Assembly (NCBI GenBank): GCA_000004985.1
Contig: GG738875.1
Direction: 5' to 3' (one strand)
Length of the DNA: 64,000 nt
Source of the DNA: Naegleria gruberi
Taxonomy: Eukaryota
The translations under genes and the position numbers were made by a program. The notes beneath the pieces were generated by a model. It was not told the DNA's origin and searched no databases. It saw only the letters and a list, made by a program, of their open reading frames with translations. Below are positions 8,401 through 58,782 of this stretch, piece after piece (the first letter of the stretch is position 1; every line of letters begins with the position of its first letter).

Positions 8401-8405
8401 ACAAT

Positions 8406-13951: not shown

Positions 13952-14005
13952 TAAATTGTTTTTTGTTATTATTTTACAACTTGTAAATTGTAAAGTGTGA
14001 TCATA

Positions 14006-17720: not shown

Positions 17721-17770
17721 NNNNNNNNNNNNNNNNNNNNNNNNNNNNNNNNNNNNNNNNNNNNNNNNNN
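17721..17770. other. Assembly gap
   Basis: Run of n characters. Confidence 1.
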
Positions 17771-19844: not shown

Positions 19845-21127
19845 NNNNNNNNNNNNNNNNNNNNNNNNNNNNNNNNNNNNNNNNNNNNNNNNNNNNNNNN
19901 NNNNNNNNNNNNNNNNNNNNNNNNNNNNNNNNNNNNNNNNNNNNNNNNNNNNNNNNNNNNNNNNNNNNNNNNNNNNNNNNNNNNNNNNNNNNNNNNNNNN
20001 NNNNNNNNNNNNNNNNNNNNNNNNNNNNNNNNNNNNNNNNNNNNNNNNNNNNNNNNNNNNNNNNNNNNNNNNNNNNNNNNNNNNNNNNNNNNNNNNNNNN
20101 NNNNNNNNNNNNNNNNNNNNNNNNNNNNNNNNNNNNNNNNNNNNNNNNNNNNNNNNNNNNNNNNNNNNNNNNNNNNNNNNNNNNNNNNNNNNNNNNNNNN
20201 NNNNNNNNNNNNNNNNNNNNNNNNNNNNNNNNNNNNNNNNNNNNNNNNNNNNNNNNNNNNNNNNNNNNNNNNNNNNNNNNNNNNNNNNNNNNNNNNNNNN
20301 NNNNNNNNNNNNNNNNNNNNNNNNNNNNNNNNNNNNNNNNNNNNNNNNNNNNNNNNNNNNNNNNNNNNNNNNNNNNNNNNNNNNNNNNNNNNNNNNNNNN
20401 NNNNNNNNNNNNNNNNNNNNNNNNNNNNNNNNNNNNNNNNNNNNNNNNNNNNNNNNNNNNNNNNNNNNNNNNNNNNNNNNNNNNNNNNNNNNNNNNNNNN
20501 NNNNNNNNNNNNNNNNNNNNNNNNNNNNNNNNNNNNNNNNNNNNNNNNNNNNNNNNNNNNNNNNNNNNNNNNNNNNNNNNNNNNNNNNNNNNNNNNNNNN
20601 NNNNNNNNNNNNNNNNNNNNNNNNNNNNNNNNNNNNNNNNNNNNNNNNNNNNNNNNNNNNNNNNNNNNNNNNNNNNNNNNNNNNNNNNNNNNNNNNNNNN
20701 NNNNNNNNNNNNNNNNNNNNNNNNNNNNNNNNNNNNNNNNNNNNNNNNNNNNNNNNNNNNNNNNNNNNNNNNNNNNNNNNNNNNNNNNNNNNNNNNNNNN
20801 NNNNNNNNNNNNNNNNNNNNNNNNNNNNNNNNNNNNNNNNNNNNNNNNNNNNNNNNNNNNNNNNNNNNNNNNNNNNNNNNNNNNNNNNNNNNNNNNNNNN
20901 NNNNNNNNNNNNNNNNNNNNNNNNNNNNNNNNNNNNNNNNNNNNNNNNNNNNNNNNNNNNNNNNNNNNNNNNNNNNNNNNNNNNNNNNNNNNNNNNNNNN
21001 NNNNNNNNNNNNNNNNNNNNNNNNNNNNNNNNNNNNNNNNNNNNNNNNNNNNNNNNNNNNNNNNNNNNNNNNNNNNNNNNNNNNNNNNNNNNNNNNNNNN
21101 NNNNNNNNNNNNNNNNNNNNNNNNNNN
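19845..21127. other. Assembly gap
   Basis: Run of n characters. Confidence 1.
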
Positions 21128-29508: not shown

Positions 29509-31804
29509 TTAATGCTCAATTTTAATAGTATGAATCATCATATCATTTCTACCTTGTTGAGTTGAAATTACTTTCCATTCAAAGGGATCTGTTATTTCAT
29601 TGGGTTGATGATTTAATTTTCCTCTCACTTGTTTCAATCCTCTCGATAATGCAAATAGAAATATTTGTCTACAATCTTTTAAATGTTGAGGGAGATGATT
29701 GTAATTTTGAGGATTACAACGAATTGCAAATTCCCCAATTTCCTTCATTGATTTAATTTCATCTCTAAGATGAATATACATATTAGGTTGTTTACAAAGT
29801 GTTGATTTCACAATTTTCAAATTAGTTTGAAATTGGATAGGTAAATTTTGAATATCTGTAAATGCACTAGTTTCAAATATTGCCTTTTCAACAAATTCTG
29901 AATCATTCAATAATTCATTACTGAAATATGAAAATGTAATACTGCTCAAATCAGCACTTTCGTAATAATTTCTTATATTTTTACAACAATCAATCAAATG
30001 CATTGCCATTTCCTTATTATTTGAATATGATTCATCCAATGTTATAATTCCTGGATTTAATTTCATTGCCACTTTGAAATAATCAGGATTCTTATAAATT
30101 GTTTCATCAAATAAAAATATATCAGTTCCATTTTCTAATACTTTTGTAATCCACTCTGGGGATGCCATCAGTTTCTCCTCTAATATCCCTTCAACTCTTA
30201 TATCAATCCCACTTTTTACAACAATATCAAATACTTCATCATCTTGAATAACNNNNNNNNNNNNNNNNNNNNNNNNNNNNNNNNNNNNNNNNNNNNNNNN
30301 NNATTTGCTTAATGAACGGAATGTTCCTTTGAAGGAGAGGTGGAAGTTTTTTGAAAAATTTAAACCCCATTTGAGAATTTTCCATATTTTCGAGGGATAA
30401 TTTAAACATTTCCATAATTGTTATGTTTGAAATATCGATTGGATATATAATGTACATTATGTTTTCTCCCCTTGATTTCACAGCTAATTGACAAAGTTCA
30501 GTATATTGATCGTAATGATAATATTTGGAATCTAACTTCTCAAATACATGTGGATGCTTTCTAATAATTTCAATGAGCTCATTATATCCAAGATAATGTT
30601 CATTGTGATGCAAAATGAGTGAAATGCCTTCAGGTACTATTGATACAATACTAGTTATGAACTCAATTTCATCCTTTGTGAATGGATTGATTCTATTTTT
30701 CCCCAAATAGGAAGAAAGATAGATGGATGAATAAAGTTCGAAATAACCAGTTGAAAAAGCTTGTCTAATAAGTGATTTATCACTTTCCAACTTATCAGAT
30801 AGTGTAACTGTTGAAACGAAATCATGCTCATAATACATTTTCCAATTAGGTATTCTCGGTTTACCATATTTTTTTCTAATATTAGTATTATCATAATGTC
30901 TAATGCAATAACTAACAAATTCTGAATCATCTTTCAAATAATTTGGCAAACAATCAAATGGTATTAAACCAAGTCGTATCAATAAATAAAATAAGTCCCT
31001 CCTATTATTGTACATTTCCATAAATTGAGCTAGTTCATTATTGTTAATGGTGCTACTGAAAAACTGTTTTAGATTTGTTAATCTCTCTTTCAACATATCC
31101 AACTCTTTAATTCCATGAGGATAAGTTGCAGATTTTAACATTAAATTTGATATTTTCTCAACATTTAAGTTTTGTAAAATTAGTTTTGGGTTTGAAGCAG
31201 CACTTTGCAATTCTTTTGAAATTTCAACCCAATTCAAATATTCCAATTTACAAAATTCATACCAAGCACTATTTAAATCCCTTCTTTCAATATCACTAAA
31301 CCATTTAAATCTTGACATTAAATTAGATAAAATTCTATGAAATCCATTTAATCTATTATCATCACAACTATCATCATGTTGTTCTTTGTGTGTCATCATT
31401 GTTCCTTTAAATTGAATTAATTCTTTACATTTTCTAAACGAAACTTCTCTCCCTCCCAAATATTTAACTCTTTTCATATAATAATTAATACATTGATTTA
31501 ATATTTGTTCATTTCCACTTGATGGTAAATCGTGAATTTGTAAAATCTTACCACTTGTCAATGGAAAGGCTAATTCAGGTTCAATCATGAATTTAATAAA
31601 TCGGAGTGTTTTAAAGTATTCATTCTCATTCATATTAAAATAATTAAATGAATTTGAAAGCATTAATGAAAACATTGAATTTGTATCGAGAAAGGAGATT
31701 ATATAGTGAAATAATTCTGTTGATAAATCACTTTGAATCATTACACCGATCATCATTTTAAAAACATTTTCCTCATCTTGTTGCATTTTTTTCAGACTGA
31801 TCAA
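29509..31804 (-). CDS. Hypothetical protein with DUF4116-like repeats; spans the 50-N gap
   Basis: The ORFs at 30239-31804 and 29509-30168 are collinear across the gap at 30253-30302. The repeats are AIRCNPQNYNHLPQHLKDCRQIFLFALSRGLKQV and LIRLGLIPFDCLPNYLKDDSEFVSYCIRHYD. Confidence 0.5.
30253..30302. other. Assembly gap
   Basis: Run of n characters. Confidence 1.
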
Positions 31805-32256: not shown

Positions 32257-33648
32257 ATGAGTAATAATCCTCTTCAAGGTTTAGTGTATAGAGCAACTGA
32301 TTCTAAAAATCCGACTGATGATTGGGATTCAATAATGCAATTATCTGATTTATTATGTCAAAATCCTGATGAAAATACAAAATTAATTCTTCCTTTGCTT
32401 AATGGTCGTCTTCGAGATACAAACAGTGCAACTGTTTTATATTCATTAACTCTTGCAGATGCTCTCATGAAGAATACTAGTGATTTTGTTAAACAACAAT
32501 TCCTAAGATCTGATTTTCTTACAATTATTAATAATTTATCAACTAGATCAAGTGATCAACAAGTTAGACAAAAAGCAACTGAAGTTATGAATGAAAATCA
32601 AATTCCACAAGCATCACAAACTATTCAACAACAATCACCCCCTGTGAGTCAACCAAGAACAGTTCCTCAACCAATGCCAGTTTCTCAACCACTTTCGACC
32701 AATACAAAACGTTCAACTACTAGAAAACTTGCAACCTATCAAGAAAAGATGGATAATGATTTGAATGTCGTTAGAGAAAATGTTGCTTTATTGAATGAAT
32801 TGGTTACTGCTTCTTCATCTCCTGGCGAATTAAGACAAGATGATACTGCAGCTCAATTAAGAGCTAATTGTGAAGAAATGAGTAGAAGAATTATTGGACT
32901 TATTGAAATGATTCCAGAGGAACAAGTTCTTTTAAAATTATTGGAAGTTCATGAAAATTTAAACAATTCAACACAAAGATATGATAAATTCATGACATCT
33001 GGCCAAAAGGAAGCAGTTAAGCTTGCTAGTCCAACAACTGGTAATAATTCATCTGCACCTCCTCTTTCTCCTCAAGTTTCTCAAGGATTTGGAGCATTAG
33101 CAAATAGAAATAATCAACCAAATGTAAATAGAAATCCACCAACCAAACCAAATAATGGAGCATTATCATTGGATGATTTTCTTGGAACAAATAGTACTCC
33201 TATTCAACCACAATCTAATCCTACTCCTGTTGTCAATCCTAATGTTAACTCAAATCAAAGGACACCATTATCATTGGACGACTTTTTAGGACTTCCAGTT
33301 CAACCATCCCAACCACAACCATCCATTCCTCAAAACAGTTATGCTCAACAACAACCAACTCACTACAATCCAAATCAACAACAACAATTCAATAATCCAC
33401 CACCTTCATATGAATATAGTAATAATCCATATGCTGATACAATGGAAAGAGAATTTTCAAGACTCAATGCTCCACAACAACAGCCTCAACAACCAAACAA
33501 CAACACCATGTATCCAAATGTTGGATATAACCCTTATTCATCCTCATCAGATCAAATCGATCCGAATGATCCTTTCGGCGTTTCTAAACAACAATCTCAA
33601 CCTCAAGAAGGTGGTTTTGCTGCTTTAGCCCATAGAAAGAAGAATTAA
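32257..33648 (+). CDS. Tom1-like protein with VHS + GAT domains and a Pro/Gln-rich C-terminus
   Basis: The N-terminus is VHS-like (ATDSKNPTDDWDSIMQLSDLL...TVLYSLTLADALMKN). The GAT-like helix region runs from QEKMDNDLNVVRENVALLNELV to RANCEEMSRRIIGLIE. The C-terminus is a P/Q-rich tail. Confidence 0.8.
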   Translation: MSNNPLQGLVYRATDSKNPTDDWDSIMQLSDLLCQNPDENTKLILPLLNGRLRDTNSATVLYSLTLADALMKNTSDFVKQQFLRSDFLTIINNLSTRSSDQQVRQKATEVMNENQIPQASQTIQQQSPPVSQPRTVPQPMPVSQPLSTNTKRSTTRKLATYQEKMDNDLNVVRENVALLNELVTASSSPGELRQDDTAAQLRANCEEMSRRIIGLIEMIPEEQVLLKLLEVHENLNNSTQRYDKFMTSGQKEAVKLASPTTGNNSSAPPLSPQVSQGFGALANRNNQPNVNRNPPTKPNNGALSLDDFLGTNSTPIQPQSNPTPVVNPNVNSNQRTPLSLDDFLGLPVQPSQPQPSIPQNSYAQQQPTHYNPNQQQQFNNPPPSYEYSNNPYADTMEREFSRLNAPQQQPQQPNNNTMYPNVGYNPYSSSSDQIDPNDPFGVSKQQSQPQEGGFAALAHRKKN

Positions 33649-37307: not shown

Positions 37308-40156
37308 CTAATCAATTTCAATGATTTCATTTGGATCTCTCTTACGTTTCTTCTTTTCAGCATTGGCAATAGCAACTTGATGAATACTATGGATTTCATG
37401 TTTGGCTGGGTTCTCTCCCATCAAAATATCAACCAAATTACGATAATCAACTACAACACAGTTTTCACATTTAGCACCAATCTTTTTGTGTTTGGAAAAT
37501 GTATTCTTATTAATAAGCACTAAGTTGGCATAGAAATTATCAATTTTTCCACCTCCACTCCTTATTAAACATTCAACTCTGCTCTTAGTGTGCTTCCTCA
37601 ATAGAACTTGTCCAGTCATGTGAGAGAAAACAAATGTTTTCAACGCCTTATGATTCTGATTTACCTTTAGTAGAGTTTGAACTTTAGAGTCGAATTCATG
37701 TGCACACTTATTGAAAAGATAAGGTTCTTCGTCAATCCAACATTGAGATTCAATACTCTTTTGAATATACTCTGGTTTAACAATGGCACAATTACCAGCT
37801 ACTGCACATAGAAAATTGTAATCTTCCGTGTTGAGATGATTTGCCACAAAGTGAGTTGTAACATTTGGAACAAACTCCTTATTGATTTGATAATGTGTTA
37901 ATATTCCAATATCTTTGGTCAATTCATTTTCCAATTCTGGATTTTGGAAAAGGATATTTCTTTGTGAGATTTCATTGGACCAATTATCTGCACTCTTTAA
38001 AATCATATTTTGTACATCAGTTTTGTCTTCAACTCCTGATAACCATTGATTAATAACTTGTAAACTTTCTTCATCCAAACTTGTTTCGAACATTTTCAAA
38101 CATTTCATTACTAAATGTTCTGCATCTAATTTGTGAGCAATGTCCAACATTGGAATCACCAAATCATTCTCTACAACAGGCTCAATTCCATAGAACATCA
38201 TTAAAATATTTTTCAATGCTCTTGTTTTGATTTGAGATTCAGGATCAATAAGCAATTGCTTCTCCTCATCACTCATTTCTGCAAAATTAATTAATGCACC
38301 ATCAGCTACATCTTCATCATTGAAGAGATTAATTTCATCAGAAGCAAAATGACCAGTGTAAAAAGCTTCAAAAAATGTACTTTGTGCAATTAAGACACTT
38401 CTATGACATTTGATCTTTTCAGTGCCAAACTGATCTATAATGATGGTAGTATCTGATGAATCAGAATTAAATAGACTTTCTAGACATGAATGAGTGGTTG
38501 GTAAAGTAGCAAAGTTCCCATTTTTCATAAATGTCGATAAATCCTTCCCTAATATCTTTGGATCTATTCCTTCCTGTTTCAACATCTTTATGAATTTGTC
38601 AGCAATTGGCTCAAAACCTATACATTTTGAAATGTGAACTAAACTCAAATACATTAGTGGGGCTGTAAAATCATTAAAATCTACACACATCCTTTCAAGA
38701 TAGTATAATAGCTCTGCAATCATTGAGGTTGAATATTTCTTCATAAATGAGCAATTTTCTGAGAAACAATAATCAACCAAATCTTGAAGAATATTTGGTG
38801 AATTTTCAGAATTAACTAAGTTATCTTGTTTGAGGAATGTATAAAATGAAGGATTTCTAATTTGGATAAATGCAAGGAATGTGTAAATGTTATTCGAATT
38901 ACCAATTTGAATTGTATCAGAGGATAATTTGAATTGTTTGGCCTTTTCTGAAACAAGTTGATAAATTGATTTTTCAACTTGGTGTGGTGAGTAATCTGAT
39001 TTGTAAAATATTAATTCATCGTCATTGAAATTAACTCTAGCATTTGAATCAGTTCCAAAATTAACAATTAAAACTGGTTCGTTCACACTGGTATTTTCTA
39101 CCATGACTGTATTCATACCATCTGTGGTTTGAATGTGCATATTATTGGTGGTTTTTTCATTGCAAAATAAGAGTACATCCTCTGAATCATTGTTTTGGTA
39201 TTCAATTTGAGTACTATATCTGTTGCCTCTGTGATTGTTTTAGTGAACTTGGTGGTGAAAACAATTTTTTTAGGTAAGCAATAAACAGCCTCAATACTAG
39301 GCAAATAATATATATAGAATATTATCAATATTAATAACATACCTATCAAACTGTTGTAGAGTTGGAATAACTTTAGTGTTTCGCAATGGTGTTTCCCCTA
39401 AAAATTGGCCATAAGCAACATATGATCCATCACTCAATTTAAATAAAGAGTATGATCTGCCACAATAAACATCAACTATGTTTTCCTTAAGCTCAGTAAT
39501 TCTCTGAGGTGTAGAAAGATAGACCGAATCGTTTTCAAACGTCTGTTGTCCATAATAATTACTACCACAAGTGTAAATCTTTTTAGTATTGGTAAAGAAT
39601 AAAGTGAAGGCATCTCCACATGCAATCTTTACAACCTTGTCCTTATACTTTTTGCTATTTATATTGATTCTATCAAAGAAATTCAATGGAACAAAATCAT
39701 GCACTGTATCCAAATGTCCCAATCCCAATTGACCATAATCATTTTTCTAATAAAGTAAATTAAATTAAATTATATTAATACTATATTAATACTAACACCC
39801 ATTCCATAAACTTTTGATTTTCCCAAGAGAAATAAATGTGTATTTGTACCAACAATGTCCAACACTGAATCATTAATTGTATCAACCAATTTCAATATTG
39901 AATAAGATTCACTATATTTGCATTTGTACAATTTTCCCTCACTATCAATCACAAATAAATTGCTTTGAGAGACAATAGCCTTCTTGATCACAATATCATT
40001 CGGAATGGAAATTTGATAGGTTTGTGTGGTGGGTACTGCGTAGCCCTTCAAGGATGGAGCATAAACTGAGAGGACAATAATCTTATCATCAACATCAATA
40101 TTAATTTGTTTGGGCTCCACAGTGTAAGTTTTTTTGGTGGTGGCAAAATGAAACAT
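37308..40156 (-). CDS. RCC1-repeat + BTB domain protein (RCBTB-like); complement(join(37308..39213, 39343..39746, 39797..40156))
   Basis: RCC1 repeats occur in exons 1-2 (KVYGMG, NDYGQLGLGH, GSNYYGQQ). The BTB domain is IIIDQFGTEKIKCHRSVLIAQSTFFEAFYTG. Choosing the acceptor atatag|t at 39213/39214 gives a 129-nt intron, joins exon 2 in frame to the 610-codon ORF, and yields an 889-aa protein. Confidence 0.8.
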
Positions 40157-43401: not shown

Positions 43402-46400
43402 TTAATTTCTATTTGTAAATAATAAAACAACAGATAATGCAATAAGAATTAAAGTGACAATTGACTTGGCATCAAAAGATTTCAAACCAGCATCTGGAGT
43501 AGCACAATCAATCTTTTGAGTGTAACCAGTGAAACATTGACAAACACCTTCACTTGAACATAATCCATTACCATTACAATCATTTGGACATTTTCTACGT
43601 TCACAACTGACACCAGAGTAAGAATCATCACAAGTACAAATACCAATTGAAGTATCACAAGTACCATGACCATTACATTTTGGATCAACACAATTGTACA
43701 AATCACAATCAAATCCAGTGAATGAATCTTCACATGTACAGAAACCTGTAACTGGATCACAAGTACCCTTATAGTTACAATCTCCAGGACATGGTTTAGT
43801 ACCTGTAATGATTAATGAATGTTCTGTACCTAAAGCAACATCAATGGCAAGTTCTCCATTTGGAATTGGAACCTTAGTTGGAGTATAAACATTATTTTGA
43901 TGACCTAAACCCAATTGACCCTTATCATTCAAACCAAACATGTAAACTGCACCACTAGCTGTTAAGAAACCAGCATAATAACCATCAGGTTGAGAAATAA
44001 CAATCTTGACAGCAGTAATTGGAATACTTGGATTCAAAACTGGTGTAGTAATTCTAGAACCATTGAGATTTGGATCTAAACCCAATTGACCATAAGTATT
44101 ATCACCAACAACATAAACACCAACACTTGTTACAATAAATGTAGAGTCAGCACTTGTAATAATGTTAGTAATTGTTGTAATGTTTGTAAATGTACCAACA
44201 GAATTACTGTTAGAATTACTATTCACATTACCAATTTCACGGAAACTTGAACTAGCAGTCAAAGCACCGAAACCTAATTGACCATAAGTACTATCACCAG
44301 TACCATAAACTCTATTGAAATAAGTTCTTGTAGTACCAGAACCACCCTTTGATTCATATGAAACATAAGTTGAATGGAATGGACCAGCAGCAGCCATAAC
44401 GACAGTATTGGTTGACAAACGAATTGGAGCTTCCTTTTCAACGTTAGCAATTTGACCTCTACTGTTACCACCCATAACGAAAAGTGACATGGTAGTTGCT
44501 GTAGTTCTTCTAGCTTTCATAATTGTGTGAATGGCACCACATGAAACTGATTCAATGACAATGGTACCGTTTTCATATTGAATAGTACGTGGAATGAGTG
44601 TAACGTTTGAAGTTGATGTTCCAGTACCAAGACCCATTTGACCATTTGAGTTACTACCCATGGCAAGAACGAGAGTTGAAACATTGGTCATGAAAAAGAC
44701 AGTTGTTTGTACTTTTGATGAATAAGTACCATAACCAATTGAAATACCAGTAACATTGTAAGAATTCAATTCAGGAATAGCACGTGGAACTTGTTGATCA
44801 ATATAAATGTTTGGATTTAAGAAATTGTATGGAGATCTATTACTACCCCATGCCCAAGTCTTACCAGTCAAATATTCAGTAGCAAATGAAACACCATTAC
44901 TAGCATAAACATGATCAAATTGAACATTTGATGCAATGGTACTCAAAACAGTTGGAGAAGTATAGTAAACTTGATCACCAGTTGTGGAAATCTTACCCAT
45001 ACTATAAACACCATTATCAGTAGTTAATACGAAAGTATTCTTTGAGGAAACTGCTAAAATGTATGAGGCAGTTTTTCCACTTGGAACAGTTGTTGAACTC
45101 TTAACAGCTCCAGTAACTGAAGAAGACCATGGATTTAAACCCAATTGACCTTCAGAATTGTCACCACAAACATAAACATCACCAGAAGATGTCAATAAAA
45201 CAGAATGTTGATAAGCAGTGGTAATTTGAGTAATAGTTGTAGATAAAGAAGGTGAGAATAAAGCAGATGAAACTTGAACTGGATAATATGAGCTAGTAGT
45301 TGAAGTACAGAATGAAGCCATATCATTCTTACCCCAGAAATATACCTTGTTTTGATTAGTTGAAGCCAAAGCACCCAATTTGTAAACTGAAATATCTAAA
45401 ACAGTTTCACCATTCAATTGAACTTGAACTGGAGTAGCTTGTTGAGTGATAGAAGTACCATTAATACCCAAAACACCTTCATCATTTGAACCACCAGCAA
45501 AGAGTTTACCATCAGTTGTCAAAACAAACATGGAACGAGAATAACCAACAACTTTTTGAACTGTAGTATAATAGGAAGTACCTAAAAGTGTTGGAGCTTG
45601 AACAATATAATCAGTAATACCCATCTTTTGGAATGCATTATCACCCCATCCATATAATAAATTAGTACTAATTTGAATACCAAATGAAGAATATCCAAAT
45701 GCAAATACTTTGGCTAATTTGAGAGTTGGCACACTATCCATAATTGTGAGATTAGTTGGAGCAACCAAATAATCAAAACCTTTACCAAGTTGTTGATAAT
45801 TGTCTATTTAAATTCATGGATACATAAATAATAATTTTAACACAATAAATGTCAAGTTTTCAAATGCAATCAAATATTTGAAAATGATATGTTAACAAAT
45901 GATCATATAAAATAGATTACATACTATTACCAAAACCATAAAGATCCGAATTTCCATTATTCAAAAGATAGATAACATGTTCAGTACCACAGGCCAATGA
46001 TTTAATACCAACACTGTAGGAAGCAATCAATTGTGGAACTGTGAAACTAGAAGTAGTATTCAAACCTAAATTATTATTATTAGTATTATCATTCAAAAAT
46101 AATCATTATATTCATCACAATTATAATCACACAATTTTAAATAATCACAAATAATAATAATAATATACGTATGTGAGTGAGTGAATGTGATATTACACAA
46201 TTTGTTGCAAATTTTCATCAATTATTATTACATTCTAATAACAACAAACATACCTAATAAATAATTAACAGTTGATGAGAGTGTGTTTGTACTTGAACCC
46301 ATTCCATATAATTTACTTTCTCCTGTAGTTTCGGATACAACAAAGAAAACTCTAACATTTGAACCAGAATCATCTTGTTGAGCGCAAACAAAAGAAACAT

Positions 46401-46703
46401 TCTTTCCTTTGAAAGTATCAATAGCTTGTGGAATGTAGTAATTTTCTTGTCCTAATTGACCAGCAGCATTTGAACCAAATCCATAAACTTTACGTCCTGA
46501 AACTGTTGATGGAAGAGATGATAATCTTTTAGCACGCGGTTTAGTAAATGGATTGTAGGATTTACAATAGATGGAATTTGCAATAAGTATACTGCAAAGT
46601 AGTACAATTAATAGTTTAAATGACAAGTTTCTAATGGTTTCGAATAAGTTTATAATGTTTAGTTTTGTGATAACATTAGAATAATACGTTACCTTGATGT
46701 CAT
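43402..46703 (-). CDS. Type I membrane protein with an extracellular RCC1-like propeller, 3 EGF-like modules, a TM segment and a short tail; complement(join(43402..45803, 45925..46065, 46254..46630, 46693..46703))
   Basis: Exon 1 (atg aca tca ag) plus a 62-nt intron gives the signal peptide MTSRNLSFKLLIVLLCSILIANSIYC. There are at least 10 RCC1-type repeats (KVYGFGSNAAGQLG, GDNSEGQLGLNP, GSNSNGQMGLG, GDNTYGQLGLDP, LNDKGQLGLGH). The EGF modules read CPGDCNYKGTCDPVTGFCTCEDSFTGFDCD, and two further copies follow. The TM segment is IVTLILIALSVVLLF. Introns are 62, 186 and 121 nt, all GT..AG, and the protein is 976 aa. Confidence 0.8.
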
Positions 46704-47039
46704 TTTTTTCTTCTGTTGAAAATTTGACAAGTGACTTTGTTGATTGGTAACGGCTGCCTTCAAAAATGACATGACAGAACGAATAAATAGAAAGGAATGC
46801 GTCAAATGGATCTTGTTCAATTTTACTTGAGTTTTTTGTTCGTTCACAAATTTTCTTCTAATATCAAACTAGTAGTATGATTCGAACGAATCATTTGGCG
46901 CCATTTTTATTCATCAATGTTTACACTGTAAATTCCAAGCCTCGAGGCTTTCTTGTTAAAAATAGCGAACTTTTACAACAAATAAGTCCTCACTGTTAAA
47001 GTCTTGCGTTTTAATTTTCCAATTTTTAAAAGAAAAAAA

Positions 47040-50000
47040 ATGCCACCAAAGAAGAGGAATATTAATTATGATGATGACGACGATGCTGATGAAAACGATA
47101 ATGCAGGAAATGAGAGTTTAATTGTTCGGGAGCGATTAAATTTTGCTAACCGAAGCAGTAATGGATCATCTTCGGGTGGTGGTAGTGTAGGATCATCGAA
47201 TAGTACTAATCAGTGGTGTGCTTTTAATATTGGTGATAAATCGGAGAATGATATTGAACGTGTGATGATTGCCTACTTGGAAAAGTATCACTTGCAAGAT
47301 ATTAGAGATATTTTGTGTCCTCCTCTCACTCTAACAAATGATGATACAATTCACTATAGTGTATTTATTGATGTTTCACATTTCATGTCTGCAAATATTG
47401 AAATTGGATCAATTTTATTATCATACCCAACAGAATTAATTCCTATTTTTGAGAGAGCACTGATTAAAACACAGCAACGTCACATTGAAAAACAAGAAGT
47501 TATGAAGGAACAATTTAAATTGAAAACATTTGTGCATGTTAGACTTCATACGTTACCACAATGTTCCGAAGTAACAAAAACATCAGTGAGATCTGTGAGG
47601 AGTTGTGACGCTAATAGATTAATTTCTGTCAGTGGTACTGTCATTAAAACAGGGCCTATCAAAATGTTGGAGTATAAGAAGATTTATATTTGTAAAAAGT
47701 GTAAAAAGTCATTTGATATTGTTGCAGATAGAGAACAATTTAATAGTATAACGAAACCAACACAATGCCCAATTGAAGATTGTGGAGGAAAATCATTTAT
47801 TTCGAGAGAGGATGAAATTGTTTGTAGAGATTATCAGGAAATCAAAATTCAAGACAAAATTTCACAACTACATGTTGGTTCAATTCCTCGTTCCATTCTT
47901 GTAGTTTTGGAAGATGATTTAGTGGATGTTGTAAAAGCTGGAGATGATGTAATTTTAACAGGAATACCTTTCAGAAGATGGAAAACTTTTAAAAACGATG
48001 CTAGATGTGGTGTTGATATGGCTGTATGGAGTAATCACATTCGTATTGGAAATGAAAAGAAGAGTGCAATGAACGTTACAGAAGAATTGAAATCAGAATT
48101 TAAACACTTTTGGGAAAAGTATAAGGAGAATCCATTGGCAGGAAGAAGCTTAATTTTGAAGAGTATGTGCCCTCAATTATTTGGATTGTACTTTGTCAAG
48201 TTGGCAGTTGCGTTGACTATTATTGGAGGAGTACCAATGAAAAAGAATAATACACGTATTAGAGGAGAGTCACATTTATTGATTGTTGGTGATCCAGGTA
48301 CTGGAAAAAGTCAATTTTTGAAATATGCCTCTAAATTGAGTCCCAGATATGTAATGACAAATGGAATTGGTACAACTAGTGCCGGTCTGACAGTTATGGC
48401 TTCAAAAGAGTCTGGAGGAGATTGGGCCCTTGAAGCAGGTGCTCTTGTTTTGGCTGATGGAGGAGTTTGTTGCATTGATGAATTTGATGCTATCAGAGAA
48501 CATGACAGAGTAACCATTCACGAAGCTATGGAACAACAAACCCTCAGTATTGCAAAAGCTGGTTTAGTTTGTAAATTGAATACGAGAACAACTGTTTTGG
48601 CAGCATGTAATCCAAAGGGAAAGTATGATTTGGAAGCAAGTATTTCTGTAAATTGTGCACTTGCTAGTCCATTGTTGAGTCGTTTTGACATTGTACTTGT
48701 ACTTTTAGATTCCCAAGATGAAGAGTGGGACAATAGAGTTTCATCATTCATTCTCAATGAGCAACAAATGGAAGAGGAAGATTCTCAGTTATGGTCATTT
48801 GATAAGTTGAGAGCTTATATTTCCTATATCAAATCAGAATATCATCCACAAATACCGCCAGAAAGTGGTAGAATCTTAACAGAATACTATAGACTTCAAA
48901 GAAGAGCTGACAGAAGAGTTGCTGCAAGAACAACTATTCGTTTGCTTGAGTCTTTAGTTAGATTAGCCCAAGCTCATGCCAGACTCATGTGTAGAAAAGA
49001 GGTTACTGTCCAAGATGCTGTAATGTCTGTATTAACTGTTGATATTTCTTCCAATACTTCATCTTTACTGAATGTTTCATCTGTACTTCATTCTAATTTC
49101 CCAGACGATCCAGATAGTGATTATAAGGGTTATATTGAAATGGTTCTTTTCAAGTTAGGTATTGGTTTACAAGATCCTAGAACTGTTAATTTTTCAATGC
49201 CTCCTCAAAATCAAAGACAACAAATCACACAAAAGAAACCAACACAACAAGCCACTCAAAGAGAAGAAAGAGTGGATGAACCCTTAATAGACGATGATGA
49301 TGACCAAGTTGATTTTGGTTTTACTGATGATGAACCTCAACCTGAACAAGTTACCAGTCATGCTGTGAGAACTCCAACAAAACCTAATCAAGGATCATCC
49401 AAACGTAAAATTGAGCATCACCAGGAAGAGCCTGAAGAGGATTATCGATCTCCACAAAAAAAGAAGAAAAGTGTCTTCTCAACCCAAGATCTAGAAGAAG
49501 TAGAAAATGATATTCATAGAACACCTTCTCTTCCTTCAAATCGTAACCTAAACAATTTTAAAGAGCATTTGAGATCTAAGGGAAAGGATTTGGAAACATC
49601 AGAGCTCCCTCAACCTCCAAAACCTATTGAGCCACCAAGGTCTATTTTACAAAAACCTCAAGCTCCACCAATTGTTGAAAAAACCTCCTCTTCTGTCCAA
49701 TTTAACAAACCTTCACCACCTCCACAACAACAAAATGTACAGCAACCAAAAGATAATATCCCTAGTATAAATCCACCCCCTTCAAAACCACCTTCCAGAC
49801 AAACTCCTCAAGATATTATTCCTCCAGTAACCAATAATCAACAACAGCCTACAAAACCAGCCCAACAAGCAACTCCACAAACAGGAAGAGGTAGAAGTTT
49901 ATTATCTAATCTTGGTTCACGAACTAATCAAGTAGCTCAACAACCTCCACCCCAACAATTTCAACAACCTCCACGACCAGCTCAACCAGCTACAGATCAA

Positions 50001-50159
50001 CCTCAAAAGGATGATTCATTTGAATTACCAGAATCGTTTACGTTAGGAGATGATACCAGCTTCTTACTAGACGCAACCCCAACCAAACCATCCAATAGCT
50101 CTGGAAATAATTCTAAAAGACTTATTGATGATAATGATGAGCTTGATGGACTAATTTAA
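47040..50159 (+). CDS. mcm9: DNA helicase MCM9
   Basis: A zinc motif is present: CKKCKKSFDIV...CPIEDCGG. The MCM AAA+ core reads IRGESHLLIVGDPGTGKSQFLKYASKLSPRYVMTNGIGTTSAGLTV...ALVLADGGVCCIDEFD...SRFDIVLVLLD and is near-identical to the MCM9 Walker A, Walker B and arginine-finger region. A long P/Q-rich C-terminal extension follows. The real ATG is at 47040. Confidence 0.9.
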   Translation: MPPKKRNINYDDDDDADENDNAGNESLIVRERLNFANRSSNGSSSGGGSVGSSNSTNQWCAFNIGDKSENDIERVMIAYLEKYHLQDIRDILCPPLTLTNDDTIHYSVFIDVSHFMSANIEIGSILLSYPTELIPIFERALIKTQQRHIEKQEVMKEQFKLKTFVHVRLHTLPQCSEVTKTSVRSVRSCDANRLISVSGTVIKTGPIKMLEYKKIYICKKCKKSFDIVADREQFNSITKPTQCPIEDCGGKSFISREDEIVCRDYQEIKIQDKISQLHVGSIPRSILVVLEDDLVDVVKAGDDVILTGIPFRRWKTFKNDARCGVDMAVWSNHIRIGNEKKSAMNVTEELKSEFKHFWEKYKENPLAGRSLILKSMCPQLFGLYFVKLAVALTIIGGVPMKKNNTRIRGESHLLIVGDPGTGKSQFLKYASKLSPRYVMTNGIGTTSAGLTVMASKESGGDWALEAGALVLADGGVCCIDEFDAIREHDRVTIHEAMEQQTLSIAKAGLVCKLNTRTTVLAACNPKGKYDLEASISVNCALASPLLSRFDIVLVLLDSQDEEWDNRVSSFILNEQQMEEEDSQLWSFDKLRAYISYIKSEYHPQIPPESGRILTEYYRLQRRADRRVAARTTIRLLESLVRLAQAHARLMCRKEVTVQDAVMSVLTVDISSNTSSLLNVSSVLHSNFPDDPDSDYKGYIEMVLFKLGIGLQDPRTVNFSMPPQNQRQQITQKKPTQQATQREERVDEPLIDDDDDQVDFGFTDDEPQPEQVTSHAVRTPTKPNQGSSKRKIEHHQEEPEEDYRSPQKKKKSVFSTQDLEEVENDIHRTPSLPSNRNLNNFKEHLRSKGKDLETSELPQPPKPIEPPRSILQKPQAPPIVEKTSSSVQFNKPSPPPQQQNVQQPKDNIPSINPPPSKPPSRQTPQDIIPPVTNNQQQPTKPAQQATPQTGRGRSLLSNLGSRTNQVAQQPPPQQFQQPPRPAQPATDQPQKDDSFELPESFTLGDDTSFLLDATPTKPSNSSGNNSKRLIDDNDELDGLI

Positions 50160-55094: not shown

Positions 55095-58000
55095 ATGATA
55101 TCGACACCACAAAAACGTTCCTCTCGAAGAAACATCTCTTCGGGGCCAACATCACTTTCTGGTGGATCGTCATCTCACGCAACAAATAGATCAAGCCATC
55201 AAAAGTTACTTCAATTTATTGAACACATTAAATTCGAGACTAACAAGGATAAATTAAATCACTACCTACAACAAATTGATGATATTTTGATCAGCACAAC
55301 AGAAAGGTATGTTAATAGTAAAATTTGCTGGAAATTGGAAATTATTGTGTAGTGATAATGACTTGGTAAACGAATATTTGCCTAAAATTCTTCAGATTCA
55401 ACATCCTGTGCACCCTCAAGATTTTAAACTTTTCCTTTCTCTCTTGATTGAAAAAGTTATGAACAAGGTTCAAAATGTTTCTGTTGAAAATACAAAGAGT
55501 TGTGCTGAAACATTGTCTTTAATTCTGATTTCTACTGATAGTACAAACTTGATGAAGCGTATTATTACAACAAGTATTTCAATTGTTAGGAAATCTATTG
55601 AATTAATTACTCTGGATCCAAACAACAAGCATAATAGTATTTTATTCAGTCACATGTCACTTTTGATTAAGAGAATTTTGAGTTATATTGATAAGGATAA
55701 TGAAGGTATTCAAACTCATGCTGTACATTTTATTGAAAATTTAATTTTAATGTACAGTAGTATTAATAAGTCAAATATGGAAATCAATGAAGAAAACCTT
55801 TCGAACCTCTTATCTTACCTTCAACTTTCTGGTAACACCTACAAGGTTCAATATATAGATCCTTACCCAATTGACTTGAGCTTTGTTTCAAGTTATGCAG
55901 AGAATGGTAAAGTTGGATGTTTCAATGTTGAAAATATGAGAGATGAAGGAGCAAGATATTTGGAAAAATTGATTGAAAAATTTAAAAAGGAGGATTGTCC
56001 ATCATCTGTAATTTCAGTCATCATCCAAGCTTTACTGAATATTGCAAAACAAAGACATGGATTTTGGAACACAATTATTCCTTTCCTTTCTAATCAGGCT
56101 TACTATTATTTGGGAAAAGGTAGAACTAACAACACACAAAAACAAACTTTGAAGACTTTATTGAAAACAGCTATTTTGTTTTTATTGAAAATGCCAGAAA
56201 CTAGACACAAATGGAGACCAACTATTCTTCATGGATTGGGTGAGCTTGATGTAAGCAATACTTCGATCGGAATGATTACTAAATTTGTGGATAAACATAC
56301 TACAGTTTTAAAAAGAAAGGAACCACCTGCAGAGGAAAAAGAAGCCAAGGTTAGGAAGAATGATATCTCTCAAGCTTCTCAAAATCAAACTGGAGCTCAA
56401 CCTACTCAAGATTTGGAGCCTACATCAGTTTTATATATCAGCTATGTTCCAAATGCTATGACTAACGTTGAGCTGGCAAATACAGTTCTTGGAAATCTTT
56501 CTCGAATTGAATCAAAATCTAATAGACCACCTAAGAATCTTGAGAATAGTAATCAATTGGTTGGTGTCGTTATGTCTGCCCTCTCTAGTCACTATAAGAA
56601 AGGTAATACATATTCTTCAGAAGAACAGCAACAATATATGAGTTCCGTACAATTATACTTATCAGAACCTATTCCATCATTCAACTCTAGTCTTGTCACA
56701 GTATCTGTACTCCAACAACAAGCAAATCCTTATCAAGCTAGACAAGTTGCTACAACACCTTACGGAAGAAGTCCATATAGCAGAGCTGCTCCAGTCCAAT
56801 CACAAAAAGCTGACCCAAGACTTACCCAAAAAGATCCAAGAACAGCATATGTTCCTGATAAGAGTAATGCTTTCAGTTCTAATCAATCTAAAGCCTCTGG
56901 AGATGATTCTGATGAGGAAGAGGTTGTCACATACAAACAACAAACAACTGTCAAACAAGAAAAGGTTGCTGAGCCAGTTGAAGAAGATGTTAAGGAGGAT
57001 TTATCAAAACAATTCAAACTTAAATTATCTATTGTTGATGATAACTGCAAACAACAACTCAAAAAATTCAATTGGAACAAGATGTTAATGAATGAAAAGG
57101 GGATGAAAAGAGAAGGAAAAGATCACTATAGAATTAAGCTCATTTGTCTTATGGCTGTAAGAAGTGCCGAAACAGACGAGCAATATCAACAACTCTACAA
57201 TTTCATTAAAGAGGATGTTAAGGGCCGATTCTCACTACTCATGATGTGGTTGTATATGGAGTATAAACACTCCATTGAACAAGAATATAATGTCAAAAAA
57301 GAAGAAAGTTCCGAAAATAGATATACAAGACTTTTCCACAAGTTTTTACTCAGTTTCGATAAGAGTGAAAGTATTCTTGCCAGATTTTTGGTTCAATCTC
57401 CACACATTACGCAATATACATTGGATTATATTTGTAAAGATCTTTGTGAAAGCGATAATTACATAGGACATGGACTAACAGCTCTAAGAGATATAGTTAT
57501 TTACAGACAAAATTTAAGAGAAAGGTGTTTGAATATGTTACTAAATTATGGTATTCACCAAAACTCTAAGATTCGTACACCTGCAATCCAGATTTTGCGT
57601 GATAAAACTCTGTATACTTTATTTGAGAAAGAAATTACCGACTTTGCATATTCAAGTATTATGGACATGAAACCTCTAATTGAGCAATCAACTTCAACTG
57701 ACGAAATGGTAGATGAACAAGAATCAAGCACTGATGCTAATAATGAAATTATTAAGAGGTACAGCTCCCTTTATTTGGCTCTTAGCTCGTCGTATTGTGA
57801 AGCAACATTTGAGAAACTCCTTAATGATGTTTATGCTAACTACAAGAGTTCAGAAAATATGGAGCCAGTTGTAGCAGTCTTGGAGAAAGACATTTTAAGT
57901 ACTGTGAAATCGAGCTTGAACAGAGCAACTGTGATACAGTATTTGAAAAATTTCAAGGAGGCCGAGTGTCTCGATATTAGTATTAAGATTATGCAACAAT

Positions 58001-58782
58001 TATCACTTCAACCACAAGGTATTGATGAAAATCTCTCCAAGGTGCTCATTTACACATTTTTCGAAAGAAACATCAAAGATCCAAGAATGGTTTTACCTAT
58101 TTTGTCTCAATTAACCAAAGAACAAGCCAAGGAAGCCCTTCCAATCGTTTTCAAATCTGTTACTGATGTTGAATTACTAAAAAAGAATATTATCAGTATG
58201 GTGACAGCCAATTCAAAGGCCGAGAAGAGTGACAAGCTTTCAGGAGATGAAATTCTTGTAATTTTACATCAAATAGAGGCCAATAGTGAAGTACAATCTG
58301 TGGCATTTAATAATACAAGAAATGTACTTGATGCATGTCTTATTGGAGATGGAAAGCAACTATTCACTTCACAAATGTTGAAAACAGCTCTCCAACAAAT
58401 TGTTGATATTGTACCAGTACCAAAGTTAGTTATAAGAACAGCTATTCAATCTTTGAACTTGCATAACGGTTTAGCTCAATTCCTTCTCAAATTTTCTTTC
58501 CCATCTCTTATCAAAAAGAGAGCCTACGAAAGCAAGACAATATTGTTTGGTTTAGCAAAGTGTCTCTCTGATAAGCTAACCTTATTCCAACCACCAAAAG
58601 TAGTAGAGTTCCTTTTAGACTTGGGAGAATTGAGTGAAACTGCCTTGTTGGAAGTATTAGAACAGCAAAACCTTAGAGATTTATTTAAGGAAACTATTCA
58701 AATTCAGCAGCATCCAAGAGCTTCACACTATAATTCTCTTTTAGCCAACCAACAAACAACAAGTGGTGCTGAACAAAAGTAA
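55095..58782 (+). CDS. Large (about 1213 aa) helical-repeat (HEAT/ARM-like) scaffold protein, possibly symplekin/Pta1-like; join(55095..55306, 55353..58782)
   Basis: A 46-nt intron gtatgttaatag...ttgtgtag joins MISTPQKRSS...ILISTTE to SDNDLVNEYLPKILQIQHP.... The protein has long predicted helical repeats and Ser/Gln-rich linkers. The symplekin assignment is only tentative. Confidence 0.55.

What the first reader, a model, noticed from the sequence alone, without database searches (positions are those of the whole stretch)
43402..46703. Membrane protein that displays an RCC1 beta-propeller and tenascin-like EGF repeats extracellularly
RCC1 repeats are normally nucleo-cytoplasmic, where they act as GEFs or binding platforms. 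Here at least 10 RCC1-type blades follow a cleavable signal peptide. They are followed by three Cys-rich EGF modules, a single TM helix and a 5-residue tail. This predicts a cell-surface RCC1 propeller, possibly an adhesion or recognition molecule, which is attractive for a social amoeba. The four-exon model uses only canonical splice sites.
Basis: partly seen in the sequence, partly recalled or inferred. Interest (0 to 1): 0.65.

Follow-up and report, generated by a model that had tools for sequence, protein, structure and literature searches.

The report
Surface-anchored double RCC1 propeller, Naegleria
This is a real but uncharacterised Naegleria gruberi gene for a secreted, membrane-anchored glycoprotein that carries two RCC1-type beta-propellers on a short EGF stalk; the arrangement is unusual for a eukaryote but has precedents in plants and bacteria.

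Summary
A four-exon gene on the minus strand (46703..43402, all introns GT..AG) encodes a 976-aa protein. It is 100% identical to the annotated Naegleria gruberi protein NAEGRDRAFT_80122 / XP_002675919.1. The organism is therefore a heterolobosean amoeboflagellate, not a dictyostelid social amoeba.

The protein has:
- an N-terminal signal peptide;
- 14 RCC1 blades, not about 10, forming two complete seven-bladed RCC1-like domains;
- three tenascin/teneurin-type EGF modules with 18 invariant Cys;
- a 17-residue C-terminal hydrophobic segment followed by only NRN.

Eleven relatives share the architecture: N. lovaniensis, N. fowleri, Willaertia, Acrasis and seven metagenome sequences. In 8 of the 12 proteins the hydrophobic end has a tail of 0-1 residues. 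All 12 have small residues a few positions upstream of it. I therefore favour a GPI-attachment signal over a true transmembrane helix.

The 11-nt first exon is supported. Exon 2 has no usable ATG, and N. lovaniensis has a 14-nt first exon split at the same Arg codon.

Most likely function: a cell-surface binding or adhesion module, not a GEF.

Extracellular RCC1-like propellers are already known in plant CRINKLY4 kinases and in many bacterial surface proteins. No paper in the library searched names any accession of this protein or its orthologues. Interest is moderate.

The parts
46693..46703 (-). Exon 1, 11 nt (ATGACATCAAG; Met1-Thr-Ser plus the first 2 nt of the Arg4 codon), followed by a GTAACG donor
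   Evidence: Exon 2's reading frame has no ATG/GTG/TTG between an upstream in-frame TAG (46860-46858, read off the sequence) and the TTG at 46626, so a spliced start exon is needed. N. lovaniensis has a 14-nt exon 1 split in the same Arg codon.
46631..46692 (-). Intron 1 (62 nt, GT..AG)
46254..46630 (-). Exon 2: hydrophobic core of the signal peptide (residues 5-26 = 46629-46564), a linker, and blades 1-2 of the first propeller
46066..46253 (-). Intron 2 (188 nt, GT..AG). The N. lovaniensis orthologue appears to lack it.
   Evidence: In one search, tblastn covers N. lovaniensis residues 3-179 in one block.
45925..46065 (-). Exon 3 (141 nt), completes blade 2 and begins blade 3
45804..45924 (-). 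Intron 3 (121 nt, GT..AG). An intron at about the same codon is present in N. lovaniensis.
43402..45803 (-). Exon 4: rest of blade 3, blades 4-14, three EGF modules, C-terminal anchor signal and the stop codon (43402-43404)
   Evidence: One continuous ORF.
45007..46494 (-). RCC1-like domain 1 (residues 50-442, blades 1-7; the span includes introns 2 and 3)
   Evidence: Pfam WD40_RLD best stretch at residues 50-355. AF2 pLDDT is mostly 80-92 across this domain from about residue 140 and lower (53-84) over blades 1-2. Foldseek TM 0.81 to UVR8 over about 400 columns.
43798..45006 (-). RCC1-like domain 2 (residues 443-845, blades 8-14)
   Evidence: AF2 on this segment alone gives pLDDT 85.4 and pTM 0.87. 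Foldseek gives TM normalised to the target of 0.84 for HERC1 RLD3, 0.74-0.78 for UVR8 and 0.75-0.77 for human RCC1.
43504..43797 (-). Three tenascin/teneurin-type EGF modules (residues 846-943, 18 Cys)
   Evidence: Pfam EGF_2 and EGF_Teneurin, 3 stretches each. All 18 Cys are invariant in 12 family members. PDB sequence hits to teneurin-2/3 EGF regions.
43486..43494 (-). Candidate GPI omega site: Asp947-Ala948-Gly949
   Evidence: The aligned triplets in 7 orthologues are D-A-G, D-R-A (twice), D-V-A, D-A-A, S-A-A and G-A-A. They lie roughly 4-8 residues before the hydrophobic end (7 in N. gruberi). This is manual inspection only; no GPI predictor was available.
43414..43464 (-). C-terminal hydrophobic segment SIVTLILIALSVVLLFT (residues 957-973): hydrophobic part of a GPI signal, or a short TM anchor
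43405..43413 (-). Three-residue polar tail Asn-Arg-Asn (residues 974-976)
46704..46760 (-). Conserved non-coding 5' region shared with N. lovaniensis (blocks CCGTTACC.ATCA, AGTCACTTGTCA and AACAGAA.AAAAAAATG)
   Evidence: In N. lovaniensis this region contains an in-frame TAA. This argues against use of the upstream in-frame ATG at about window 46772.

Best explanation
NAEGRDRAFT_80122 is a conserved heterolobosean cell-surface glycoprotein, apparently single-copy in N. gruberi.

Proposed pathway:
1. A cleavable signal peptide (cleavage around residues 23-26) takes it into the ER.
2. The mature ectodomain of about 98 kDa, with 11 N-glycosylation sequons, consists of two complete seven-bladed RCC1-like propellers.
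3. The propellers are held off the membrane by a rigid stalk of three disulfide-bonded tenascin/teneurin-type EGF modules.
4. The C-terminal 30 residues (small-residue site D947-A-G, a 7-residue spacer, a 17-residue hydrophobic stretch, NRN) are most probably a GPI-attachment signal. It would be cleaved and replaced by a lipid anchor. If not, the stretch serves as a minimal transmembrane anchor.

Either way there is no cytoplasmic domain. The protein therefore cannot signal by itself and cannot be a GTPase exchange factor.

I infer that it works as a ligand-binding or adhesion module, with the propeller faces as binding platforms for substrate, prey surface or a partner membrane protein.

Shown: gene structure, domain content, fold, family conservation and the termini. 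Inferred: topology, GPI versus TM anchoring, and the binding function.
For: - Gene model. It matches the public annotation exactly. The micro-exon and its split Arg codon are conserved in N. lovaniensis. Exon 2 has no alternative ATG.
- Domains. RLD, RCC1 and EGF Pfam matches are far above the curated cut-offs.
- Blades and fold. There are 14 blades. Two full propellers are seen by AF2 plus Foldseek.
- Secretory topology. Only two hydrophobic segments exist, at the two extreme termini. Signal-peptide-like N-termini occur in every N-terminally complete relative. All 18 EGF Cys are invariant. The EGF region is the most conserved part, at 47-77% identity. The sequons at N526 and N550 are conserved in 11/12 and 10/12 members.
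- GPI reading. The hydrophobic end is 14-20 residues long across the family (15-20 by script for the first seven; down to about 14 by eye in the five metagenome members). The tail is 0-1 residues in 8 of 12 members and 3-4 in the Naegleria clade. A small-residue triplet is conserved roughly 4-8 residues upstream of the hydrophobic end.
- Family distribution. It is found in Naegleria (3 species), Willaertia, Acrasis and 7 metagenome sequences. One of these lies on a contig with typically eukaryotic genes.
Against: - No transcript, proteomic or localisation data were available, and no paper in the library names any accession.
- No SignalP, TMHMM or GPI predictor could be run. The signal-peptide and omega-site calls rest on hydrophobicity scans and inspection.
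- In the Naegleria clade the hydrophobic end is followed by basic residues (NRN, KRM, NRRG). That is more typical of a stop-transfer TM anchor than of a GPI signal.
- I did not verify that Naegleria has a GPI transamidase. One paper only mentions 'evidence of GPI-anchored proteins' (PMC9928731).
- The ligand and cellular role are pure inference. The destination could be another secretory-pathway compartment rather than the plasma membrane.
- The AF2 model has low confidence in the EGF region.
Confidence: 0.7

Rival explanations
1. This is the first reader's version: a type I single-pass membrane protein. The C-terminal hydrophobic segment stays in the mature protein as a transmembrane helix, with a 3-4 residue cytoplasmic tail.
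For: The four Naegleria-clade members keep basic residues right after the hydrophobic run (NRN, KRM, KRM, NRRG), as the positive-inside rule predicts. AF2 draws a helix over residues 955-975. The mean hydropathy of the segment is high, at 2.75.
Against: Only 17 uncharged residues are available, which is short for a plasma-membrane helix. Eight of 12 family members end with the hydrophobic run and have no cytoplasmic residue, or only one. A conserved small-residue triplet plus spacer precedes the run, as in GPI signals.
Confidence: 0.3
2. The protein travels the secretory pathway, but its working place is not the trophozoite plasma membrane. Candidates are the cyst wall, the flagellate surface, the food-vacuole or lysosomal lumen, or shedding into the medium after anchor cleavage.
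For: Nothing in the sequence specifies the final destination. GPI proteins are often shed or built into walls. The PDB sequence search also hit EGF modules of stramenopile tubular mastigoneme proteins (9ufe chains), which shows that this EGF type occurs in flagellar-surface structures.
Against: There are no lysosomal or ER-retention motifs: the protein does not end in a KDEL-like C-terminus, and it has no cytoplasmic tail to carry sorting signals. Conservation extends to Acrasis, which has a different life cycle. The mastigoneme hits cover the EGF modules only.
Confidence: 0.2
3. It is an ordinary cytosolic RCC1-like protein (a GEF or scaffold), and the apparent signal peptide comes from a wrong 5' gene model.
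For: The first exon is only 11 nt, and I have no transcript evidence. An upstream in-frame ATG exists at about window 46772 (the 52-aa ORF at 46689-46847).
Against: The hydrophobic N-terminal core is encoded in the same exon and frame as blades 1-2, so it is part of the protein whichever ATG is used. Every complete orthologue has it. Eighteen invariant EGF cysteines and a C-terminal hydrophobic end make no sense in the cytosol. In N. lovaniensis an in-frame stop lies 15 nt upstream of the ATG.
Confidence: 0.03
4. It is a UV-B photoreceptor of the UVR8 type, as the automatic name of the Acrasis kona orthologue ('ultraviolet-B receptor') and the Naegleria pangenome paper's 'RCC1 (UVR8)' category suggest.
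For: UVR8 is among the best PDB matches by sequence (1.7e-21) and by fold (TM about 0.8). The naming appears.
Against: No GWRHT motif is present, and the whole 976-aa protein has only 5 Trp. HERC1, HERC2, RPGR and RCC1 match equally well, so the similarity is generic to the fold. The secretory signals and EGF stalk are incompatible with UVR8's cytosolic and nuclear mode of action.
Confidence: 0.01

Closest known systems
Plant CRINKLY4 / ACR4 receptor-like kinases
   Same: A eukaryotic membrane protein with a signal peptide, an extracellular seven-repeat RCC1-related beta-propeller, and then a Cys-rich module next to the membrane (PMC4617170). It is the clearest precedent for an extracellular RCC1-type propeller in a eukaryote.
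   Different: CR4 has one propeller of about 39-aa 'crinkly' repeats with regularly spaced Cys. It has a TNFR-like Cys-rich domain rather than EGF, a true TM helix and a cytoplasmic kinase. The Naegleria protein has two canonical RLDs (50-64-aa blades matching Pfam RCC1), three EGF modules and no cytoplasmic domain. I made no direct sequence comparison with ACR4.
Bacterial cell-surface and secreted RCC1-repeat proteins (proteins carrying the Gram-positive anchor domain PF00746, Ig-like/Big_2 fusions, 'choice-of-anchor D' proteins, BLIP-II, giant Oscillospiraceae RCC1 proteins)
   Same: RCC1-type propellers, often in tandem, exported and displayed outside the cell. These are the highest-scoring hits outside the family (P0008-P0051, including architectures with PF00746, PF02368 and PF09479).
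   Different: They use prokaryotic anchoring and have no EGF modules. Scored domain by domain, they are no closer than animal HERC4 (92 vs 78 bits for RLD1, 71 vs 70.5 bits for RLD2). There is therefore no evidence that the Naegleria gene was acquired from bacteria.
Canonical nucleo-cytoplasmic RLD proteins (RCC1, HERC1/2, RPGR, UVR8, WBSCR16)
   Same: The same seven-bladed fold and repeat motif. PDB sequence E-values run from 7e-23 down to about 1e-10-1e-17, and Foldseek TM values normalised to the target are about 0.7-0.84.
   Different: Those proteins lack signal peptides and work in the cytosol, nucleus or mitochondria as GEFs, scaffolds or photoreceptors. Here the domain lies between a signal peptide and an EGF stalk with an anchor, and it is duplicated.
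Tenascin / teneurin EGF arrays, and beta-propeller-plus-EGF surface receptors such as the LDL-receptor family (the latter from general knowledge)
   Same: The six-Cys EGF modules match Pfam EGF_2, EGF_Teneurin and EGF_TEN and the teneurin-2/3 structures. The general design of a propeller held on an EGF stalk at the cell surface is the same as in YWTD-EGF receptors.
   Different: There are only three EGF modules. No other tenascin or teneurin domains are present (no FN3, fibrinogen, NHL or YD shell). The propeller is of the RCC1 type, not YWTD or NHL. The protein is not a member of those families.

Membership tests
RCC1-like domain (RLD) superfamily | Tandem 50-68-aa RCC1 repeats recognised by the family profiles above the curated thresholds | tested here: met
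   PF25390 scores 322 bits (cut-off 150), PF00415 199 bits (cut-off 21.7) and PF13540 112.5 bits. There are 14 repeats of 50-64 aa.
RCC1-like domain (RLD) superfamily | Closed seven-bladed beta-propeller fold | tested here: met
   AF2 models. Foldseek against the PDB gives TM normalised to the target of 0.81 for UVR8 with the whole protein. RLD2 alone gives up to 0.84 (HERC1 RLD3), with TM normalised to the query of 0.70-0.76. These are predicted structures, not experimental ones.
RCC1 proper / RanGEF-type function | Access to a cytosolic or nuclear GTPase substrate (no secretory signals) | tested here: not met
   An N-terminal signal-peptide-like segment, an EGF stalk and a C-terminal anchor place the propellers on the lumenal or extracellular side. 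This is sequence inference only; localisation was not measured.
UVR8 photoreceptors | GWRHT motifs and the Trp-rich chromophore cluster | tested here: not met
   No GW[RK]H[TS] motif, and only 5 Trp in 976 aa.
EGF_2 / tenascin-teneurin-type EGF modules | Six-cysteine module matched by the profiles, with the cysteines conserved | tested here: met
   EGF_2 scores 46.5 bits (cut-off 22.1) and EGF_Teneurin 47.3 bits (cut-off 24.3), each in 3 stretches. All 18 Cys are invariant in 12 sequences. EGF_TEN at 53.7 bits is below its cut-off of 65, so this is not a full teneurin EGF array.
GPI-anchored proteins | N-terminal ER signal peptide | tested here: met
   Residues 1-9 are polar or basic, followed by the hydrophobic core LLIVLLCSILIA and small residues at S23 and C26. 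The feature is conserved in 9 of 9 N-terminally complete relatives. SignalP was not available.
GPI-anchored proteins | Hydrophobic stretch of about 12-20 residues at the extreme C-terminus, with no cytoplasmic domain | tested here: met
   The stretch is 17 residues plus NRN in N. gruberi. Across the family it is 14-20 residues, with tails of 0-1 residues in 8 of 12 members. The basic 3-4-residue tails in the Naegleria clade are atypical.
GPI-anchored proteins | Omega site with small residues at omega and omega+2, followed by a short polar spacer | tested here: inconclusive
   The aligned D-A-G, D-R-A, D-V-A, D-A-A, S-A-A and G-A-A triplets lie roughly 4-8 residues before the hydrophobic run (7 in N. 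gruberi). This rests on manual inspection only. NetGPI, PredGPI and big-PI were not available.
GPI-anchored proteins | The organism has a GPI transamidase, and the protein is released by PI-PLC | not tested
   I had no query sequence for PIG-K/GPI8. The only support is a passing literature remark (PMC9928731). The biochemistry is not testable with these tools.
Type I single-pass transmembrane proteins | Hydrophobic helix of about 19 or more residues, flanked by cytoplasmic basic residues | tested here: inconclusive
   There are 17 uncharged residues, then N-R-N. The basic flank is present in the 4 Naegleria-clade members and absent in the 8 others.
CRINKLY4 receptor kinases | TNFR-like Cys-rich domain and a cytoplasmic Ser/Thr kinase after the propeller | tested here: not met
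   There is no kinase or TNFR Pfam match, and only 3 residues follow the hydrophobic segment.

The most novel reading that the evidence does not exclude
The family is a Heterolobosea-specific, GPI-anchored double-RCC1-propeller receptor, used by these amoebae to bind prey bacteria or substrate. It may also be used by Acrasis in aggregation and by N. fowleri in host-cell contact. If so, it would be the first functionally defined extracellular RCC1-type receptor outside plants, and an independent invention of the 'propeller on an EGF stalk' adhesion design.
Probability: 0.3. Interest if true: 0.55.

Novelty: new variant of a known kind. Interest (0 to 1): 0.35.

Why it matters
- It places the RCC1 propeller, usually discussed as a GEF or scaffold inside the cell, on the outside of a free-living protist. 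The architecture (two RLDs, three EGF modules and a lipid or TM anchor) appeared in my searches only in Heterolobosea and related environmental eukaryotes.
- The orthologue in the brain-eating amoeba N. fowleri (FDP41_005456, 53% identical) is a large, probably surface-exposed glycoprotein. To my knowledge, and untested here, it has no human counterpart of this architecture. That makes it a conceivable antigen or adhesion factor to test.
- The automatic annotations need correcting. 'Ultraviolet-B receptor' for the Acrasis orthologue is not supported by the sequence features tested here. The JGI metagenome label 'alpha-tubulin suppressor-like' is a generic RCC1-family name that says nothing about this architecture.
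- Beyond that it is an ordinary, already-annotated hypothetical protein. Extracellular RCC1-like propellers are not new in principle.

Tried and rejected
1. Bacterial origin by horizontal transfer. The best hits outside the family are bacterial multi-RLD proteins. Scored domain by domain, they are no better than insect HERC4. The high totals come from summing many repeats, so I rejected this as unsupported.
2. UVR8-type photoreceptor. Rejected.
3. Upstream in-frame ATG at about window 46772 as the true start. Unlikely: the intervening sequence is a conserved non-coding block that carries an in-frame stop in N. lovaniensis.
4. Paralogues or tandem copies in the window. None found.
5. Synteny with N. 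lovaniensis. The flanking genes differ: an MCM gene in N. gruberi, and glycerol-3-phosphate dehydrogenase and a short-chain dehydrogenase in N. lovaniensis. This was not informative.
6. Literature look-ups by locus tag or accession. Nothing relevant turned up; the single hit was a false match in a bone-screw paper.
7. Searches for other eukaryotic extracellular RCC1 proteins. They gave only CRINKLY4. The Zymoseptoria Zt89160 and Paramecium/Toxoplasma Nd6 cases are intracellular.
8. Foldseek against AFDB50, to look for the same architecture in other eukaryotes. The library was not available.
9. The exhaustive profile search. It was flooded by giant 2-7 kaa repeat proteins. The two I checked were a pure RCC1 giant and a pure EGF giant, not fusions. 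The architecture's absence outside this family is therefore not proven.
10. Recent internal duplication of the two RLDs. Rejected: they show only about 26% local identity.
Full report
**What is there.**
- The window is AT-rich eukaryotic DNA with about 30% GC and five assembly gaps.
- On the minus strand between 46703 and 43402 there is a four-exon gene. The exons are 46703-46693 (11 nt), 46630-46254, 46065-45925 and 45803-43402. The introns of 62, 188 and 121 nt all begin GT and end AG.
- The 976-aa translation is 100% identical over its full length to the public model 'predicted protein [Naegleria gruberi]'. Its identifiers are NAEGRDRAFT_80122, XP_002675919.1 and UniProt D2VIX1.
- The organism is the heterolobosean amoeboflagellate Naegleria gruberi, not a dictyostelid social amoeba.

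**Is the 11-nt first exon credible?**
- The reading frame of exon 2 is open upstream only as far as a TAG at 46860-46858. It contains no ATG, GTG or TTG before the TTG at 46626 (sequence).
- The hydrophobic N-terminus and blades 1-2, which are conserved in all orthologues, can therefore only be translated if a start codon is spliced on.
- The N. lovaniensis orthologue (locus L001) has the same arrangement. Its first exon is 14 nt (ATGGCCAAGATGAG|GTATGT). A 417-nt intron follows, and the acceptor completes the same Arg codon just before the hydrophobic core.
- The roughly 55 nt upstream of the ATG contain blocks shared by the two species: CCGTTACC.ATCA, AGTCACTTGTCA and AACAGAA.AAAAAAATG.
- In N. 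lovaniensis this stretch carries an in-frame TAA. The additional in-frame ATG at about window 46772 in N. gruberi is therefore unlikely to be the start.
- This is comparative support, not transcript evidence. Both models are computational predictions.

**Domain content.**
- Pfam gives RCC1-like domain PF25390 at E = 6.6e-96 in three stretches, RCC1 PF00415 in nine stretches and RCC1_2 PF13540 in five. EGF_2 and EGF_Teneurin each match in three stretches.
- Ten blades carry the canonical motif (for example VYGFGSNAAGQLG). Four more are degenerate, at about residues 112, 331, 443 and 493.
- That makes 14 repeats of 50-64 residues, or two sets of seven.
- AlphaFold2 on the whole protein with a 7-sequence alignment gave mean pLDDT 71. 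The first propeller is mostly at 80-92 from about residue 140 onward, with blades 1-2 lower. Foldseek aligned about 400 columns to UVR8 and the HERC1/2 RLDs, with TM normalised to the target of about 0.8.
- Residues 443-845 modelled alone with a 12-sequence alignment gave pLDDT 85.4 and pTM 0.87. This model matched complete RLD structures: HERC1 RLD3 at TM 0.84, UVR8 at 0.74-0.78 and human RCC1 at 0.75-0.77.
- The protein therefore has two complete seven-bladed RCC1-like propellers. They are old, diverged copies with only about 26% local identity to each other.
- The EGF region (residues 846-943) has three six-Cys modules. It hits the teneurin-2/3 EGF regions in the PDB.

**Topology.**
- A hydropathy scan finds only two hydrophobic segments, residues 6-24 and 957-973.
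- The N-terminus has a short polar or basic n-region, the core LLIVLLCSILIA, and small residues at S23 and C26. Alignment with the ...HG|A...FG|Q and ...YG|Q motifs of relatives favours cleavage near residue 26.
- Every relative with a complete N-terminus has such a segment.
- All 18 EGF cysteines are invariant across 12 sequences.
- The EGF stalk is the most conserved part, at 47-77% identity, against 21-56% for the propellers.
- The sequons at N526 and N550 are kept in 11/12 and 10/12 sequences.
- Together these features argue that the propellers are lumenal or extracellular and glycosylated.
- The RCC1, EGF and anchor parts lie in one uninterrupted exon. The 'two separate genes' refutation is excluded.

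**Anchor: transmembrane helix or GPI?**
- The C-terminus reads C943-ATP-D947-A-G-LKSFDAK-SIVTLILIALSVVLLFT-NRN.
- The uncharged run is 17 residues and the tail is 3 residues, or 4 counting Thr973. It is not 5.
- Across the family the hydrophobic end is 14-20 residues long.
- In Willaertia, Acrasis and six metagenome members it is the very end of the protein, with a tail of 0-1 residues. Only the four Naegleria-clade sequences add NRN, KRM or NRRG.
- A triplet with small residues at the first and third positions aligns in the first seven orthologues: D-A-G, D-R-A, D-V-A, D-A-A, S-A-A, G-A-A. It sits roughly 4-8 residues before the hydrophobic run, and 7 residues before it in N. gruberi.
- From general knowledge of GPI signals, this is the expected layout: omega and omega+2 small, a short polar spacer, then a terminal hydrophobic stretch.
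- I therefore rate GPI anchoring at about 0.6 and a minimal type I anchor at about 0.3.
- No GPI predictor was available, and I did not verify the transamidase in Naegleria.
- Either way there is no cytoplasmic domain.

**Family and relatives.**
- Full-length relatives with the same Pfam set are N. lovaniensis (54% identity), N. fowleri (53%), Willaertia magna (45%), Acrasis kona (30%) and two JGI metagenome sequences.
- An exhaustive profile search of 1.84 billion representatives added five more full-length metagenome members.
- One of these sits on a 23-kb contig with DOCK, RasGEF, RhoGEF and Pho88 genes, so it is eukaryotic.
- Only one N. gruberi sequence appeared, and there is no paralogue in the window.
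- The rest of the top 150 were giant 2-7 kaa repeat proteins. The two I checked were a pure RCC1 giant and a pure EGF giant.
- Outside the family, the best hits are bacterial exported RCC1 proteins. They include fusions with the Gram-positive anchor domain PF00746, Ig-like domains and choice-of-anchor D domains.
- Domain by domain these are no closer than insect HERC4, so I see no evidence for horizontal transfer.

**How it most likely works.**
- The protein has no cytoplasmic part and its propellers are outside. It cannot be a GTPase exchange factor and cannot signal alone.
- The design is two large propeller faces on a rigid three-EGF stalk tethered to the outer leaflet. That is the design of a binding or adhesion module.
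- Apparent single-copy status in N. gruberi and conservation from Naegleria to Acrasis point to a basic surface function. Candidates are substrate adhesion, prey capture or partnering with a signalling receptor.
- This pattern does not suggest a polymorphic self-recognition system.
- The functional assignment is inference. I found no expression, proteomic or genetic data.

**Comparison with what is known.**
- Plant CRINKLY4/ACR4 receptor kinases have an extracellular RCC1-related seven-bladed propeller followed by a Cys-rich module and a TM helix. BLIP-II is a secreted bacterial example (PMC4617170).
- Giant extracellular RCC1 proteins occur in gut Clostridia (bioRxiv 10.1101/2023.11.21.568195).
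- A Tetrahymena RCC1-repeat protein is part of mitochondrial complex IV (PDB 7w5z and 8gym).
- The Naegleria family is not a CR4 member: it has no TNFR domain and no kinase. It is not a teneurin or tenascin, and it is not UVR8-like (no GWRHT motif, 5 Trp).
- The name 'ultraviolet-B receptor' attached to the Acrasis orthologue is not supported by these tests.
- I file it as a new variant of a known kind: an extracellular RLD protein with a lineage-specific architecture.

**Verdict.**
Surface display is likely, but the organism is not a social amoeba and the arrangement is not unprecedented. The anchor is probably GPI.
- It is an already-annotated but unstudied gene. Interest is 0.35.

Noticed in passing
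window 46704-46760 (minus strand) and L001 5950-6000: The roughly 55 nt upstream of the start codon contain blocks conserved between N. gruberi and N. lovaniensis: CCGTTACC.ATCA, AGTCACTTGTCA and an A-rich run before the ATG. The proteins themselves are only 54% identical. This may be a promoter or 5'-UTR element in the 336-bp divergent intergenic region shared with the MCM gene.
   Followed up: partly
window 47040-50156 (+): The divergently transcribed neighbour is an MCM-family helicase with OB, P-loop and lid domains and a long, low-complexity, Pro/Gln-rich C-terminal extension of about 370 aa. I did not determine which MCM paralogue it is.
   Followed up: partly
window 11178-12740, 14468-16038, 17721-17770, 19845-21127, 30253-30302: Five runs of N (assembly gaps) total about 4.5 kb. 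The first 23 kb of the window is also noticeably more AT-rich (14-27% GC) than the rest (about 31%). ORFs reported across the gaps, such as 13997-16168 and 19689-21776, are artefacts.
   Followed up: partly
window 5656-8115 (+): This ORF combines a protein kinase domain, DUF4116 repeats and leucine-rich repeats (Pfam). It is an unusual multi-domain kinase that I did not examine further.
   Followed up: no
window 441-2309, 26720-28627, 32257-33645, 37311-39140, 55309-58779, 61135-62883: The other large ORFs are ordinary eukaryotic genes: a family-A DNA polymerase, beta-adaptin, a VHS-GAT protein, a BTB protein, symplekin and a lebercilin-like ciliary protein. Nothing links them functionally to the finding.
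   Followed up: partly
proteins P0126-P0149 and others (metagenomes, not in the window): Public metagenomes hold very many giant proteins of 2,000-7,200 aa built almost entirely of RCC1-like domains, with up to 36 matched stretches. P0126, for example, has 64 RCC1 repeat matches. A separate giant made only of teneurin-type EGF repeats also turned up (P0173/P0277). In all, 151,905 representatives matched the profile at E <= 1e-3.
   Followed up: partly
P0106 (metagenome or NCBI protein, not in the window): An 1130-aa hit combines RCC1 repeats with the NCLDV major-capsid-protein domains PF04451 and PF16903. This suggests a giant-virus capsid protein fused to an RCC1 propeller.
   Followed up: no
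L001 (N. lovaniensis) 6001-9581 versus the window gene: Intron positions differ between the orthologues. N. gruberi intron 2 (after residue 130) appears to be absent in N. lovaniensis. Intron 1 is 62 nt in N. gruberi and 417 nt in N. lovaniensis. The flanking genes are not syntenic.
   Followed up: partly
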